64,000 nt of DNA from a phage: NCBI GenBank assembly GCA_028522875.1, contig GCA_028522875.1_3659.1. One strand, given 5' to 3'. The translations under genes and the position numbers were made by a program. The notes beneath the pieces were generated by a model that was given only the letters and a program-made list of their open reading frames with translations, ran no database searches and had not been told where the DNA came from. Within the stretch, counting starts at the first letter, position 1, and every line of letters begins with the position of its first letter. Positions 379 through 11,565 of this stretch are shown piece after piece.

Positions 379-849
379 TCAATCAAGGACAACACCGCCT
401 GCCTTTTTAAACACCTCGATCAACTTCTCGATCTTCTGTTCATGCTGACCATATCCAGCACCAGGTAACGAAGCCCAGCGGGAACGGCATTTATGGATAG
501 CCTGGTGAATACGACCTTCATCAATATCATCGAGCGCCTTACACTCACGGATCAGTTGCAACGCAATCTTGTCCTGGCTGGCAGGTCCAAAATCTGGTAA
601 TCCTAGCTGTTTCATATAGTGTTTAGCAAACTTCTCCAAAATCTGGTAACGCCCAGCAGCAGAAGAGGTAAGTTTAGCATTTAGCTTAACGTAAACACCT
701 GGATGCTTGCTGTAATCGCTGAACAGATTGCCACCGACTATGACATCGTATCCACGATCCTTGGTAGGTTGTCTACCATTATCTGTGCCTTCTGAATATG
801 CGATCATATCCAAGAAAGCTTTTCGTTGAACATTTTTATCAAGTTTCAT
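379..849 (-). CDS. endolysin, phage lambda R-like lysozyme (lytic transglycosylase type)
   Basis: 156 aa; N-terminal RKAFLDMIAYSEGTD...GYDVIVGG...GRYQILEKF pattern matches lambda R-type lysozymes including the catalytic Glu in SEGTD; GGAGAG RBS. Confidence 0.85.
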   Translation of the reverse strand: MKLDKNVQRKAFLDMIAYSEGTDNGRQPTKDRGYDVIVGGNLFSDYSKHPGVYVKLNAKLTSSAAGRYQILEKFAKHYMKQLGLPDFGPASQDKIALQLIRECKALDDIDEGRIHQAIHKCRSRWASLPGAGYGQHEQKIEKLIEVFKKAGGVVLD

Positions 850-972
850 TTTTCATACTCTCCAGTTTACTCATAACTAACCCGATCAACAACACTACAC
901 AGTGTGGTTATGTAGGTGCCGATTGAAAACCATCATTCAATTGGCTACCGTTACCTACTGAACCTTCCTACA

Positions 973-2256
973 TCATTCAAGCACCTCCCAAGTATCTGGG
1001 TTAACATTTCGGACGCAGATACCGACAGGGAATTGGTAGTTGTTGTCTTCTGTCCTTGCTTGGTATTTGAAGGTGACAAACTTGCCGATCATTTCCTGCA
1101 TCCTGTCATAGCTACGCTCCTCGTGCGTGCCTTTCATCTTCATTTTAACAACAATACCTTCCTTGTCAACGCAGATAAGAACACCTTCATCATTCTTATC
1201 TTTCTCAACGTCAATAACTTTCACCTCTGCGTCGTTGAACTTTTTCCATTTCAATGCTTCAGATGTTCGCTGACCGTACTCGTATTTACCGCAGAAATTA
1301 CGCATGATAGTACCTTCATATCCTTCGGACATGAATATACCAACAGATTCTTCGCAATGATCAACTGTGTACGCAAGCTCTGCGTCAACAACCTTGATAT
1401 GGTCAAGCATCAGAGTGGTAACGGTATCCTCTGCATCCATAAGATCCTTGCAGCGTCCAGACTCTGTTTCTGGATCCCACCACACCTTGTCGCTAGGAAT
1501 ATCAAAAATGTGATACTCCAGATCGTAGCTACAGTACCCACCGTAACGCAAATCATCACGAACAGGCTCAACATCGACAGGAATATCTACCTTGTTGAAG
1601 TTTTTGTATGTTGATAAGCCTGCCTTAATTGCGGCATGACGGCGTTTTTTATCTGCCTCATAGTCTTTATCGATCTCGGCCTGAATCTCTTCCTGTGTGC
1701 GCCACCGTTTAGCAAGAGACACTATTTTCTGCAAAGGAAGACCATGAATGTATAGTTCCCCATCAAGTTGTTTAATCCCAGTGGTAGAATGGAAAGAACG
1801 AAGTTGCTCTAAAAGCTTTCCTTGAATAGGGTAGGACTTATTACCACGGGAAATAAATTTAGGCTCACCATTTTGGAAAACAACAAGCAGACGAAGGCCA
1901 TCTAACTTACGCAAGATCCAGCAGGGTAGTTTAAGTGCCTTGCCACGCTTCAGGTAGTCATGCACCAGCATGGGTAAAAGATCAACACCCTGCTCGCAAT
2001 CTTCCATGTTTTCAACATACCCCAGACGGACTTGTTTTTCCCACTTGCTGATAGCCTCAAGCTCGGCCTGTTGCTCAGCTGTAGTCTCGTTGGCACGACC
2101 TACGTTCTTAGGTGTGCATACCGTCTCTTTGTACTGCAATTTACCGTCAAGCTTGCCAAACTCTACGATAACCTTTTCGCCATCAGTGAATACTTTCCAC
2201 TGTTGGTAGCTGCCATCTTTGTTCAGTGCGTACAGTGTTGTTTTGATTTGATGCAT
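973..2256 (-). CDS. ATP-dependent DNA ligase (covalent nucleotidyltransferase superfamily)
   Basis: 427 aa; motif I KLDG (LRKLDGLRL), motif III LDGELY, motif IV EGTIMR, motif V LKWKK in canonical order. Confidence 0.7.
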   Translation of the reverse strand: MHQIKTTLYALNKDGSYQQWKVFTDGEKVIVEFGKLDGKLQYKETVCTPKNVGRANETTAEQQAELEAISKWEKQVRLGYVENMEDCEQGVDLLPMLVHDYLKRGKALKLPCWILRKLDGLRLLVVFQNGEPKFISRGNKSYPIQGKLLEQLRSFHSTTGIKQLDGELYIHGLPLQKIVSLAKRWRTQEEIQAEIDKDYEADKKRRHAAIKAGLSTYKNFNKVDIPVDVEPVRDDLRYGGYCSYDLEYHIFDIPSDKVWWDPETESGRCKDLMDAEDTVTTLMLDHIKVVDAELAYTVDHCEESVGIFMSEGYEGTIMRNFCGKYEYGQRTSEALKWKKFNDAEVKVIDVEKDKNDEGVLICVDKEGIVVKMKMKGTHEERSYDRMQEMIGKFVTFKYQARTEDNNYQFPVGICVRNVNPDTWEVLE

Positions 2257-2525
2257 TACTCGTCCTCTTCCTTAAAAATTTTAAACATCTCTTCTTTACT
2301 CATTACCAACCAGTCTCCCATAAAGTCAACTAGCCAATCTCCCTGGTACAAGACAAGATTACCAAACGGCTCGATAAGCTCACACATGCGACGAATATCT
2401 CTGGTCCGAACAGGCGACGATGTAAACACACCCGTATCAATCCACCGTTGCAGATCAGATACTGATGAAGAGCTTCCGTCAAACTGGTGTGCTTCTACAG
2501 GTTTAGCAAGATTAAATAACGGCAT
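2256..2525 (-). CDS. hypothetical protein (89 aa)
   Basis: ORF whose stop overlaps the ligase start (coupled arrangement); no recognisable motif. Confidence 0.3.
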   Translation of the reverse strand: MPLFNLAKPVEAHQFDGSSSSVSDLQRWIDTGVFTSSPVRTRDIRRMCELIEPFGNLVLYQGDWLVDFMGDWLVMSKEEMFKIFKEEDE

Positions 2526-2820
2526 TGCAGTCCTCCTTCTGTAGTAGGTCTTTTATAGGATAAACAAGTAAGTGTGGATCGGAATAACGTATAGTCCTAT
2601 TCTGCCACACTATGAACTTTATTACAACCAAATTTACAATATCTTTATCACCATGTAGCCCAACACACACATTTGTCCATATTTTGTGGTTGAAGATCTT
2701 GCTATCGATGTAGATTTTAGTGTCAAACTTATCTTCCATTCTACCTATAAGTTTGATCAGCTCCTTCATCTGGTCGCCAAACACAGCATCTTTTTCAAGA
2801 TCTCTGGAATGCTTGTACAT
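2512..2820 (-). CDS. hypothetical protein (102 aa)
   Basis: ORF in minus-strand gene train; no recognisable motif. Confidence 0.3.
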   Translation of the reverse strand: MYKHSRDLEKDAVFGDQMKELIKLIGRMEDKFDTKIYIDSKIFNHKIWTNVCVGLHGDKDIVNLVVIKFIVWQNRTIRYSDPHLLVYPIKDLLQKEDCNAVI

Positions 2821-2882
2821 AACTAACTACCTCACTGCATACTTTCCATAATAAGTAAAGCCGGGTAATCCCGGCTATGTTG

Positions 2883-10508: not shown

Positions 10509-10777
10509 TGTATACACTTAAAATTGTAGAGCGTGTAAATCCAACAAATACTGTAGATTTTCGTGACGATTTCAATCCTCTGGCTGTAAATCTTCGAGAG
10601 TCATATCATGAACTCAGCTGCGATGCAGTGGTGGTCTTTTTTGAAGACAACTCTGAAGGGGCGGTAGCTTGTGTTGTTGATAGTGAGCAGAAGTTTTATA
10701 TTTACAGAGATGTAGATGCATACTTGATGAATGAAAATGCAGTTACTGTTAGAATCATCCACCGAGTGCCTCGATAA
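10509..10777 (+). CDS. hypothetical protein (about 89 aa)
   Basis: ATG 10509 chosen because ORF-track start 10418 lies inside tRNA-Pro; no motif. Confidence 0.35.
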
Positions 10778-10833
10778 GTATTAGTCTCCTTTTAGTTAGT
10801 TTCGATCTATTTAGGTTACTCAATTTTAACCCG

Positions 10834-10866
10834 CCCCGTTAGCTGTATAGCTGCGGGGTTTTTTCG
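10834..10866 (+). terminator. intrinsic terminator after tRNA/early block
   Basis: CCCCG...AGCT-GTAT-AGCT...CGGGG extended hairpin followed by TTTTTTCGTTT. Confidence 0.55.
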
Positions 10867-10882
10867 TTTCTGGAGCCTTAAA

Positions 10883-11281
10883 ATGATTTCAGGTTTAACA
10901 TGGCTTAGTAGGTACAGAGGGATCATAAAAGGTTTAGTTTTTGCAGCGGCTATAGGTACAGCTTATCTTGGGGCCGTGTATTGGTTTAACTCTAAGCTTA
11001 ATGATGCCTACCAAGAGGGTGTGTCAGCAACAGAGTTAAAGTGGGAACGGATCCTTGATCAGCAACAAAAGCAGGCCGACAAAATTAAAATGGGCCACGC
11101 AGAGGAGGTTAAAAACCTTGAAAAATCTCTTTCTGATCTGCAGGATAAATTAAATATAGCTGAGAGGGCAGGTAGAGAAAAGCAGATTATCTACCTCCAA
11201 TCATCTGAAGGTAAGAGGTCAACACTTCCTGATCAGCTTATAGATATTTATAATGAGAGTATCAATCAGGAGGGTCGATGA
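10883..11281 (+). CDS. putative i-spanin (Rz-like inner-membrane spanin)
   Basis: 132 aa; N-terminal TM segment GLVFAAAIGTAYLGAVYWF followed by charged coiled-coil-like region; stop overlaps start of downstream lipoprotein gene (ATGA). Confidence 0.55.
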   Translation: MISGLTWLSRYRGIIKGLVFAAAIGTAYLGAVYWFNSKLNDAYQEGVSATELKWERILDQQQKQADKIKMGHAEEVKNLEKSLSDLQDKLNIAERAGREKQIIYLQSSEGKRSTLPDQLIDIYNESINQEGR

Positions 11282-11565
11282 GAGTTGCTACACTGTTTAT
11301 TGTGTGCTTGTTATTATGTGGGTGTGCAACCAGTGTTGAGAAAGAATACAAGATTGACCCTCCAGATGTAGGAAGGTTGATTGTTAAACCCCCAGAAGGT
11401 GCCATGAAACCACCTGCTAAAGCTATGCCTTTGAAGAAAGGTGCGCCAGATGCAGTAAATTCTGGCATTATGAGGGATAATAATCTGTCTTGTAGCAATG
11501 ATAGAGCTAAATTGATCATTTTGCAAGACTATATTAGAACACTTTTTCCAAAGGAGAGAGGTTAA
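11278..11565 (+). CDS. putative o-spanin (Rz1-like outer-membrane lipoprotein)
   Basis: 95 aa; signal peptide with Cys in LLCGCA lipobox-like context, Pro-rich mature region (KPPEGAMKPPAKAMP); GGAGGG RBS. Confidence 0.55.
   Translation: MRVATLFIVCLLLCGCATSVEKEYKIDPPDVGRLIVKPPEGAMKPPAKAMPLKKGAPDAVNSGIMRDNNLSCSNDRAKLIILQDYIRTLFPKERG

What the first reader, a model, noticed from the sequence alone, without database searches (positions are those of the whole stretch)
379..11565. Lysis functions are dispersed rather than in one cassette
The lambda-R-like endolysin (379-849) and a small Cys-containing membrane protein (109-315) are on the minus strand at the left end. A convincing spanin pair (TM plus coiled-coil protein with overlapping Pro-rich lipoprotein, 10883-11565) lies about 10 kb away on the plus strand just upstream of terminase. 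No holin is adjacent to either; small TM proteins inside the tail-fibre block (51072-51386, 52531-52797) are candidates.
Basis: partly seen in the sequence, partly recalled or inferred. Interest (0 to 1): 0.45.

Follow-up and report, generated by a model that had tools for sequence, protein, structure and literature searches.

The report
Scattered lysis genes of rV5-like phage
The window is an rV5-like E. coli phage whose cell-bursting genes (endolysin, spanin pair, still-unidentified holin) sit at separate places in the genome, an arrangement already described for this phage group and for T4 and T7, so the finding is real but ordinary.

Summary
The window is a Vequintavirus, 98.7% identical to Escherichia phage LL12. 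ORF 379-849(-) is a signal-less lambda R-type endolysin (64% identical to lambda R). ORFs 10883-11281 and 11278-11565(+) are a two-component spanin pair, translationally coupled to each other and to the large terminase.

No holin-like ORF lies next to either. The 68-aa protein beside the endolysin (109-315) looks like a Sec-exported periplasmic mini-protein, not a holin: its signal peptide varies, its 46-aa mature domain is conserved with two invariant Cys, and its homologues in other genera have no endolysin nearby.

All of this is published. The rV5 paper (2013) says the holin is separated from the lysin as in T4. The CB7 paper (2020) says the spanins sit next to the terminase, not in a cassette. 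The LL12 note (2019) says the holin could not be identified. T7 has the same layout.

The one open point is the holin. The 88-aa protein (52531-52797) is the best in-window candidate. It has two helices and a charged tail, lies behind a predicted late promoter, and is conserved across three phage groups, flanking a membrane-protein cassette with the 104-aa protein (51072-51386). This is unproven. Interest is low.

The parts
379..849 (-). Endolysin. A cytoplasmic lambda R-type lytic transglycosylase of 156 aa with no signal or SAR domain.
   Evidence: PDB 1am7/3d3d at E~3e-57. 64% identity to lambda R, with the SEGT motif holding the catalytic Glu aligned. phrog_90 endolysin at E=8e-57. No hydrophobic segment. 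Annotated as endolysin in LL12 and Murica.
109..315 (-). 68-aa protein directly downstream of the endolysin (rV5 ORF90). Probably a Sec-exported periplasmic mini-protein: a signal peptide plus a 46-aa beta domain with one disulfide. Not a holin.
   Evidence: The N-terminal 22 aa vary, an AxA-type cleavage site is present, and the mature part is conserved with 2 invariant Cys. AlphaFold pLDDT 82: one helix plus 4 strands. No significant PDB fold match. Homologues in Serratia and Acinetobacter phages have no endolysin nearby. phrog_4641, function unknown.
347..375 (-). Sigma-70-type promoter (rV5 P090) between the endolysin and the 68-aa gene.
   Evidence: TTGACA-17-TATTGT, 10/12 match. Listed as P090 in rV5 Table S4 and in the RefSeq annotation.
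10833..10865 (+). Intrinsic terminator hairpin plus U-tract, ending the tRNA region 17 nt before the i-spanin start.
   Evidence: Sequence. Centroid fold -16.9 kcal/mol, followed by UUUUUU. Annotated as a terminator in Murica.
10883..11281 (+). i-spanin, 132 aa: N-in, one TMD (about residues 17-35), then a charged helical periplasmic domain. No Cys.
   Evidence: phrog_4297 Rz-like spanin at E=9e-48. Hydropathy and charge. Annotated as i-spanin in LL12. The rV5 spanin family is listed in Kongari 2018. 29% identical to PVP-SE1 gp78.
11278..11565 (+). o-spanin, 95 aa. An outer-membrane lipoprotein with lipobox LLCG|C16, Ala at +2, a Pro-rich mature region and a single Cys72.
   Evidence: phrog_1267 at E=1e-22. 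Lipobox Cys invariant against PVP-SE1 gp77. 9 Pro in 80 mature residues. ATGA overlap with the i-spanin and TAATG overlap with TerL. Annotated as o-spanin in LL12 and the BASEL phages.
11565..11993 (+). First exon of the large terminase. Its start codon overlaps the o-spanin stop codon.
   Evidence: LL12 annotates TerL as joined across an intron.
51072..51386 (+). 104-aa protein (rV5 ORF31): a 4-residue N-tail, one TMD (residues 5-23) and a coiled-coil-like C-terminal domain. Candidate holin partner, antiholin or holin.
   Evidence: Hydropathy. phrog_5345, function unknown, with only weak coiled-coil-type Pfam hits. Conserved in all Vequintavirinae genera (224 records). Always first in the membrane cassette after the tail-fibre assembly gene. 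Scored as 1 TMD in the rV5 paper.
51424..51460 (+). Predicted late promoter (rV5 P030) driving tail fibre ORF30, then the 88-aa gene, then the next tail fibre gene.
   Evidence: rV5 Table S4 sequence found in the window. The late motif is enriched in the window, 21 matches against 6.7 expected.
52531..52797 (+). 88-aa protein (rV5 ORF29). Best in-window holin candidate: two helices of TM length, an acidic loop, an invariant RWG motif and a variable charged tail.
   Evidence: Alignments A1 and A3. TMD1 hydrophobicity is like the TMDs of T7 gp17.5 and lambda S. AlphaFold helices 22-43 and 47-72, at low confidence. 369 phage records across Vequintavirinae, Stephanstirmvirinae and Aeromonas Plateaulakevirus. 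The homologue is annotated 'membrane protein-holin' in BME3. phrog_1322 'membrane protein'.

Best explanation
This is the ordinary, dispersed lysis system of an rV5-like myovirus (genus Vequintavirus). It is organised like T4 and T7 rather than like lambda.

**Shown**
- A soluble lambda-R-type transglycosylase is encoded in the DNA-metabolism cluster, next to DNA ligase. Having no export signal, it must wait in the cytoplasm.
- A two-component spanin (an inner-membrane subunit and an outer-membrane lipoprotein) is encoded as the first two genes after a terminator. The two genes are translationally coupled to each other and to the large terminase.
- The small protein beside the endolysin has the features of a secreted periplasmic protein of unknown role and looks unrelated to hole formation.

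**Inferred**
- A holin made late opens the inner membrane, the endolysin then cuts the wall, and the spanin fuses or disrupts the outer membrane.
- The holin is not next to either gene.
- The most likely holin inside the window is the 88-aa two-helix protein at 52531-52797, expressed from a predicted late promoter within the tail-fibre operon. I put this at about 0.35-0.4.
- It may work with the 104-aa single-TMD coiled-coil protein at 51072-51386. The two flank a conserved membrane-protein cassette in related phages.
For: - **Identity of the phage.** 98.7% identical to LL12, with 112 records covering at least 80% of the query. The annotations agree.
- **Endolysin.**
- **Spanins.**. A terminator lies just upstream.
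- **No holin-like ORF beside either gene.** Six-frame TM scan and ORF list.
- **68-aa protein is secreted and not tied to the endolysin.**
[quoted passage not shown] LL12 and Gotham notes, holin not identified.
- **T7 precedent.** Tail fibre 17, holin 17.5, TerS, spanins 18.5/18.7, TerL. T4 spanins lie apart from t and e.
- **88-aa candidate.** Build and conservation. Late promoter. The cassette [ORF31-like]-[~150-aa multipass protein]-[ORF29-like] appears in 23 of the 44 related loci and in the annotated Aeromonas and phiTE loci; another 14 of the 44 carry the two outer genes without a panel match to the middle one.
Against: - No biochemical or genetic test of any of these proteins exists for this phage group in the literature I could search.
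- The 88-aa protein matches no curated holin family in Pfam, NCBIfam or the PHROG lysis category.
- TMHMM and Phobius found no TMD in it in the rV5 paper. Its second helix is only weakly hydrophobic, its tail is not net positive, and its AlphaFold model has low confidence (pLDDT 60).
- It is never next to an endolysin or spanin in 44 related loci, so there is no guilt by association.
- The rV5 authors proposed a different protein, ORF129, which lies outside the window.
- No promoter was found for the spanin genes.
Confidence: 0.85

Rival explanations
1. The holin is the homologue of rV5 ORF129. This is a 78-aa protein with two strongly hydrophobic TMDs and a charged tail, encoded about 22 kb beyond the left end of the window among small early genes. 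On this view the tail-fibre-block membrane proteins do something else, such as superinfection exclusion or a role in fibre assembly.
For: It was proposed in the rV5 paper as the only protein with two TMDs by both TMHMM and Phobius. Its TMDs are far more hydrophobic than those of the 88-aa protein.
Against: It is restricted to genus Vequintavirus (116 records) and diverges quickly, to 53% identity within the genus. It sits in an early-type cluster and is not next to any muralytic gene. Its positively charged loop (RRKVK) argues against the N-in/C-in holin topology. Later expert annotators did not accept it, and LL12 reports the holin as not identified. It is absent from the window.
Confidence: 0.25
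2. The 104-aa single-TMD coiled-coil protein (51072-51386) is itself the holin, of a class III-like or T7-like one-TMD type. The 88-aa protein would then be its regulator, or unrelated.
For: It has a clear TMD (KD 1.91) and was scored as 1 TMD in the rV5 paper. It is conserved in all Vequintavirinae genera and in Aeromonas phages, and always heads the cassette. It is a late gene directly after the tail-fibre assembly gene, much as T7 17.5 follows gene 17.
Against: It is absent from the phi92/phAPEC8-type phages that keep the 88-aa homologue (L046-L049). Charge distribution suggests N-out/C-in, with a long cytoplasmic coiled coil, which is unlike known class III holins. It matches no holin family.
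Confidence: 0.12
3. The 68-aa protein downstream of the endolysin is the holin or antiholin. The endolysin and this gene would then form a minimal two-gene lysis cassette, and the functions would be less dispersed than claimed.
For: It is immediately adjacent on the same strand and has a very hydrophobic N-terminal segment (KD 2.86).
Against: The hydrophobic segment is the least conserved part, ends in a signal-peptidase-type site, and is followed by a conserved disulfide-containing beta domain. The gene has its own sigma-70-type, early-style promoter. Homologues in other Vequintavirinae occupy the same neighbourhood without any endolysin. None of about 120 records annotates it as a holin.
Confidence: 0.04
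4. The functional endolysin for host lysis is the exported SleB-like hydrolase (rV5 ORF2, outside the window, next to rIIA), activated by membrane depolarisation. The lambda-R-like enzyme would be accessory, so a large-hole holin may not be needed.
For: rV5 ORF2 matches Hydrolase_2 (PF07486, E=2e-19). It carries an N-terminal signal or SAR-like segment. RefSeq calls it an endolysin. Certrevirus phages have a 2-TMD candidate holin overlapping their SleB-like gene.
Against: The lambda-R-type enzyme is conserved throughout the genus and is what every annotator calls the endolysin. No small TM ORF accompanies ORF2 in rV5. A cytoplasmic transglycosylase would have no purpose without a holin.
Confidence: 0.08

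Closest known systems
Escherichia phage rV5 / LL12 / Murica (genus Vequintavirus) lysis genes as published
   Same: The genes and order are identical at 98-99% nucleotide identity. The endolysin is rV5 gp89 / LL12 gp90, the i-spanin is LL12 gp66, and the o-spanin is LL12 gp65, next to TerL. The holin is unidentified.
   Different: Nothing of substance. This window is another isolate of the same species-level group.
Phage T7 lysis gene layout (3.5 amidase; 17.5 holin after tail fibre 17; 18.5/18.7 spanins before terminase 19)
   Same: The endolysin sits in the DNA-metabolism region and the spanins sit directly upstream of the large terminase. If the 88-aa or 104-aa candidates are right, the holin follows tail-fibre genes as in T7.
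   Different: There is no sequence relationship: hhalign of the 88-aa family against gp17.5 gives probability <1%, and the i-spanin against gp18.5 gives E=0.13. The T7 spanin genes are embedded, whereas these overlap by 4 nt. The T7 enzyme is an amidase, whereas this one is a transglycosylase.
Phage T4 dispersed lysis genes (e, t, rI, pseT.3/pseT.2)
   Same: Endolysin, holin and separated-architecture spanins lie at unlinked loci. The rV5 authors draw the same parallel.
   Different: No T holin homologue is present. The rV5 late promoter motif differs from that of T4, and there are no gp33/45/55 homologues.
Lambda S-R-Rz/Rz1 cassette
   Same: The endolysin is a close homologue of lambda R (64% identity). 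The functional logic of holin, endolysin and spanin is presumably the same.
   Different: The genes are not contiguous, there is no S homologue in the window, and the spanin genes are not embedded.

Membership tests
Lambda R-type endolysin (lytic transglycosylase, lysozyme-like fold) | Significant sequence similarity to lambda R over the full length | tested here: met
   1am7/3d3d at E~3e-57. 64% identity over 149 aa at E=1e-68.
Lambda R-type endolysin (lytic transglycosylase, lysozyme-like fold) | Catalytic Glu in the N-terminal SEGT motif (Glu19 of lambda R, from established knowledge) | tested here: met
   AYSEGT aligns with AWSEGT of lambda R.
Lambda R-type endolysin (lytic transglycosylase, lysozyme-like fold) | Cytoplasmic and holin-dependent: no signal peptide or SAR domain | tested here: met
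   No hydrophobic 19-mer anywhere in the protein.
Lambda R-type endolysin (lytic transglycosylase, lysozyme-like fold) | Transglycosylase activity on peptidoglycan | not testable with these tools
   Requires an enzyme assay.
Two-component spanin (Rz/Rz1-like) | i-spanin: N-in, a single N-terminal TMD and a periplasmic C-terminal domain | tested here: met
   3 K/R and no acidic residues before the TMD at 17-35, then 97 residues that are 34% charged.
Two-component spanin (Rz/Rz1-like) | i-spanin periplasmic domain forms coiled-coil helices | not tested
   No coiled-coil predictor was run. Only composition and the PHROG family match support this.
Two-component spanin (Rz/Rz1-like) | o-spanin: lipoprotein signal with a lipobox Cys, and no Asp at +2 (outer-membrane sorting) | tested here: met
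   LLCG|C16-A17. L, G and C are invariant against PVP-SE1 gp77. SignalP/LipoP were not available.
Two-component spanin (Rz/Rz1-like) | Short, Pro-rich mature o-spanin | tested here: met
   80 mature residues with 9 Pro.
Two-component spanin (Rz/Rz1-like) | The two genes are adjacent, overlapped or embedded | tested here: met
   ATGA 4-nt overlap, with the Shine-Dalgarno sequence inside the i-spanin 3' end.
Two-component spanin (Rz/Rz1-like) | Periplasmic Cys for intermolecular disulfides (near-universal per Kongari 2018) | tested here: inconclusive
   The i-spanin has no Cys. The o-spanin has one (Cys72), and it is not conserved in PVP-SE1.
Two-component spanin (Rz/Rz1-like) | Membership of a curated spanin family | tested here: met
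   phrog_4297 at E=9e-48 and phrog_1267 at E=1e-22. The rv5 family is listed in Kongari 2018.
Two-component spanin (Rz/Rz1-like) | Needed for outer-membrane disruption (complements lambda Rz/Rz1) | not testable with these tools
   Requires genetics.
Holin (functional class), applied to the 88-aa protein 52531-52797 | Small protein with at least one TMD | tested here: inconclusive
   Helix 25-43 scores like the TMDs of T7 gp17.5 and lambda S, while helix 53-71 is weaker. AlphaFold gives helices but pLDDT is only 60. TMHMM and Phobius found none in 2013.
Holin (functional class), applied to the 88-aa protein 52531-52797 | Hydrophilic, charged C-terminal tail | tested here: met
   Tail RWGCQHPDHVKNEEQKA. 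Tail length varies across homologues. Net charge is about 0, not positive.
Holin (functional class), applied to the 88-aa protein 52531-52797 | Linked to an endolysin or spanin gene | tested here: not met
   It is 41 kb from the spanins and 52 kb from the endolysin. No endolysin or spanin lies within 6 kb in any of 44 related loci.
Holin (functional class), applied to the 88-aa protein 52531-52797 | Match to a described holin family | tested here: not met
   Nothing in Pfam, NCBIfam or the PHROG lysis category. No similarity to T7 gp17.5.
Holin (functional class), applied to the 88-aa protein 52531-52797 | Late expression | tested here: inconclusive
   It lies downstream of the predicted late promoter P030. 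No transcript data are available.
Holin (functional class), applied to the 88-aa protein 52531-52797 | Timed, energy-poison-triggerable membrane permeabilisation that releases the endolysin | not testable with these tools
   Requires an expression and lysis assay.
Lambda-type contiguous lysis cassette | Holin, endolysin and spanin genes are contiguous in one transcription unit | tested here: not met
   The endolysin is on the minus strand at 379-849, the spanins are on the plus strand at 10883-11565, and no holin lies next to either.

The most novel reading that the evidence does not exclude
The membrane-protein cassette embedded in the tail-fibre module is the missing holin system of the rV5-like phages (Vequintavirinae) and their relatives, and represents a holin family not yet in any curated library. 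The full cassette is [single-TMD coiled-coil protein]-[~150-aa multipass protein]-[88-aa two-helix protein]. In this window it is reduced to its two outer genes by insertion of a tail-fibre paralogue.
Probability: 0.35. Interest if true: 0.45.

Novelty: already known. Interest (0 to 1): 0.17.

Why it matters
rV5-like phages are common in E. coli phage cocktails and commercial products; LL12, for example, is a component of PreforPro. Knowing their lysis genes matters for engineering and for predicting lysis timing.

The dispersed layout itself is textbook (T4, T7) and already published for this group, so confirming it adds little. The only unresolved item is the holin. This analysis narrows it to a short list and points to a conserved membrane-protein cassette that could be tested directly.

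Tried and rejected
- **Curated family searches.** Pfam, NCBIfam and PHROG searches of all small membrane proteins found no holin family.
- **Profile comparison.** The 88-aa family shows no relationship to T7 gp17.5 or to rV5 ORF129.
- **Muralytic gene next to ORF129.** I tested whether rV5 ORF129 sits beside a SleB-like hydrolase, as the Certrevirus candidate does. It does not. The SleB-like gene is ORF2, next to rIIA.
- **Guilt by association.** In 44 related viral contigs the 88-aa homologue never lies near an endolysin or spanin.
- **AlphaFold of the 88-aa protein.** The model is helical but low confidence (pLDDT 60), so I did not use it for fold search.
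- **AlphaFold and Foldseek of the 68-aa protein.** The small beta domain is confident, but no PDB match has E<0.05, and there is no resemblance to T4 Spackle or RI-type proteins.
- **Aeromonas phage PZL-Ah152 Hol46.** This experimentally studied holin is a 67-aa one-TMD protein from a different phage and is unrelated.
- **Hidden ORFs.** A search on either strand around the endolysin and spanins found nothing with a TM-length hydrophobic stretch.
- **Spanin promoter.** A search for the late-promoter motif upstream of the spanins found none.

Full report
**What the window is.** The first 12 kb of the window is 98.7% identical over its full length to Escherichia phage LL12, and 97-98.5% identical to Murica, naswa and many other members of genus Vequintavirus, the rV5-like myoviruses of about 136 kb. 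Window coordinates run antiparallel to the rV5 record: window position w is roughly rV5 position 72,424 minus w. The window therefore covers rV5 ORFs of about 12 to 90.

The 156-aa product of 379-849(-) matches the two lambda lysozyme structures at E~3e-57. It is 64% identical to lambda R, with the SEGT motif that carries the catalytic Glu aligned. It has no hydrophobic segment at all, so it is a cytoplasmic, holin-dependent, R-type transglycosylase.

The 132-aa product of 10883-11281 has three basic residues, then one TMD, then a 97-residue domain that is 34% charged. The 95-aa product of 11278-11565 has a lipobox (LLCG|C16, Ala at +2) and a mature part with 9 Pro in 80 residues. They hit the PHROG families 'Rz-like spanin' at E=9e-48 and 1e-22. 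The lipobox is invariant in the 36%-identical PVP-SE1 homologue. The 'rv5' i- and o-spanin families are listed in the Kongari et al. spanin census.

The two genes overlap by ATGA, with a Shine-Dalgarno sequence inside the first gene. The o-spanin stop codon overlaps the start codon of the large terminase, as TAATG. A strong terminator hairpin with a U-tract ends 17 nt before the i-spanin start (annotated in Murica).

The 10 kb between the endolysin and the spanins holds DNA ligase, a MazG-like enzyme, Sir2, RNA ligase, a kinase/phosphoesterase pair, small unknown genes and seven tRNA genes. None of it is lysis-related.

**Is a holin hidden next to either gene?** I ran a six-frame scan for TM-length hydrophobic stretches in all ORFs of at least 35 aa. 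On the coding strands of the whole 64 kb it finds only four candidates: the 68-aa protein (109-315), the two spanins, and the 104-aa protein. The 88-aa protein scores below that scan's threshold and is treated separately below. No alternative-frame ORF around the endolysin or spanins qualifies.

The 68-aa protein is directly downstream of the endolysin, so it needed a closer look.
- Across its family, the N-terminal 22 residues are the least conserved part and come in two unrelated versions. They end in a small-x-small signal-peptidase site.
- The following 46 residues are almost invariant and carry two invariant Cys.
- AlphaFold gives a confident model (pLDDT 82) of one helix plus a four-stranded beta domain. 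It has no significant PDB neighbour.
- The gene has its own sigma-70-type promoter.
- In Serratia phage ChuuTotoro and Acinetobacter phage ABPH49, the homologue sits in the same ligase-exonuclease neighbourhood with no endolysin present.

I read it as a Sec-exported periplasmic mini-protein whose adjacency to the endolysin is incidental. It is not a holin. Its function remains unknown.

**What is already published.**
- The rV5 paper identified gp89 as the lysin and found no holin homologue. [quoted passage not shown] The Gotham announcement says the same.
- Kongari et al. point out that the T4 spanin genes are not near t and e.
- The T7 record shows tail fibre 17, holin 17.5, small terminase, spanins 18.5/18.7, then large terminase.

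The dispersed arrangement is therefore a known property of this phage group and of two textbook phages.

**The open point: where is the holin?** ORF129 lies about 22 kb outside the window and has no homologue inside it. It has two very hydrophobic TMDs. Against it:
- It is confined to the genus and diverges fast.
- It sits among small early genes with no muralytic neighbour.
- It has a strongly basic inter-helix loop.
- Later annotators left it as hypothetical.

Inside the window, the 88-aa protein (52531-52797, rV5 ORF29) has the following features.
- Its build is a helix of TM length (residues 25-43), whose hydrophobicity matches the TMDs of T7 gp17.5 and lambda S in the same scan. This is followed by an acidic loop (NDTLPEW), a second more amphipathic helix, an invariant RWG, and a hydrophilic tail of variable length.
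- AlphaFold agrees on the helices, but at low confidence.
- It lies behind the predicted late promoter P030.
- It is not among the virion proteins named or MS-flagged in the rV5 paper's text and Table S3.
- It is found in 369 phage records spanning Vequintavirinae, the phi92/phAPEC8 group and Aeromonas Plateaulakevirus, always inside the baseplate and tail-fibre module.
- The BME3 authors annotate its homologue 'membrane protein-holin' on topology alone.

The 104-aa protein (51072-51386, rV5 ORF31) has a 4-residue N-tail, a clear TMD and a long coiled-coil-like domain. It is conserved throughout Vequintavirinae and in the Aeromonas phages.

A panel search of 44 related contigs shows the two genes are the outer members of a compact cassette: [ORF31-like]-[~150-aa multipass membrane protein]-[ORF29-like], placed just after the tail-fibre assembly gene. 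In Vequintavirus the middle gene has been replaced by a tail-fibre paralogue at 51476-52519.

This conservation, the late expression and the T7 precedent make the cassette the best candidate for the holin system. The evidence is circumstantial, however. No curated holin family matches. There is no similarity to T7 gp17.5. The cassette is not linked to an endolysin or spanin in any of the 44 loci. I put the 88-aa protein at about 0.35-0.4, ORF129 at about 0.25 and the 104-aa protein at about 0.12.

**A further dispersed element.** rV5 ORF2 is a SleB-like hydrolase (PF07486, E=2e-19) with an N-terminal signal or SAR-like segment. It lies immediately upstream of rIIA and outside the window. The lysis-related genes of this phage type therefore occupy at least four loci.

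**Verdict.** The novelty class is 'already known' and interest is low. The residual value is a testable shortlist for the unidentified holin.

Noticed in passing
window 51072-52797; loci L015-L058, L006 3154-4237, L007 3184-4261: A compact cassette of three membrane proteins follows the tail-fibre assembly gene in Seunavirus-, Certrevirus- and Mydovirus-type contigs and in Aeromonas Plateaulakevirus. Its members are a single-TMD coiled-coil protein of ~105 aa, a multipass protein of ~150 aa, and a two-helix protein of ~86 aa. In this window the middle gene is replaced by a tail-fibre paralogue. The middle ORF is unannotated in Aeromonas phage 2L372D (L006 3496-3936).
   Followed up: partly
outside window: L014 1980-2480 (rV5 ORF2): A second muralytic enzyme: a SleB-like Hydrolase_2 protein with an N-terminal signal or SAR-like segment (MKIKIFAIILSAFLSLPVVAAP). 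It lies directly upstream of rIIA and has no accompanying small TM ORF.
   Followed up: partly
window 4727-6735 and 9649-10461: A T4 Rnl1-like RNA ligase lies divergent from a P-loop kinase and a metallophosphoesterase, with a cluster of seven tRNA genes nearby. Together these look like a tRNA-repair and supply module. One 99-nt tRNA (10118-10216) is called with a 4-nt anticodon by ARAGORN and is annotated inconsistently (Lys / OTHER / Asp|Gly) in public records.
   Followed up: no
window 11565-13200: The large terminase gene is interrupted. An HNH endonuclease ORF (12209-12799) sits between TerL segments, and LL12 annotates the gene as intron-containing.
   Followed up: no
window 11278-11565 in other GenBank records: The o-spanin is mis-annotated as 'putative large terminase subunit' in several records (naswa, ime, A6-1) and as 'capsid maturation protease' in SYGMH1.
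   Followed up: no
window 849-930 and 316-378 (minus strand): The regions upstream of the endolysin and of the 68-aa gene share the string ACATAACCACAC. In the second case it overlaps the -35 TTGACA of promoter P090. This may be a common regulatory element.
   Followed up: no
window 49421-50461 and 51476-52519: Two paralogous tail-fibre genes of 346 and 347 aa share their N- and C-terminal ends. The rV5 paper reports 42% identity between them and similarity to T4 gp12.
   Followed up: no
window 7134-7772: About 640 nt contain no convincing ORF. The corresponding stretch of phage naswa carries annotated repeat_region features.
   Followed up: no
search hits, e.g. MG065654, MG065666: Some twenty GenBank records named 'Campylobacter phage' are 97-98% identical to this E. 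coli phage type. The host labels are probably wrong.
   Followed up: no
window 11278-11565 vs L013 2315-2605: The single periplasmic Cys of the o-spanin (Cys72) is not conserved in PVP-SE1, and the i-spanins have no Cys. This spanin family may therefore lack the intermolecular disulfides reported as near-universal.
   Followed up: partly
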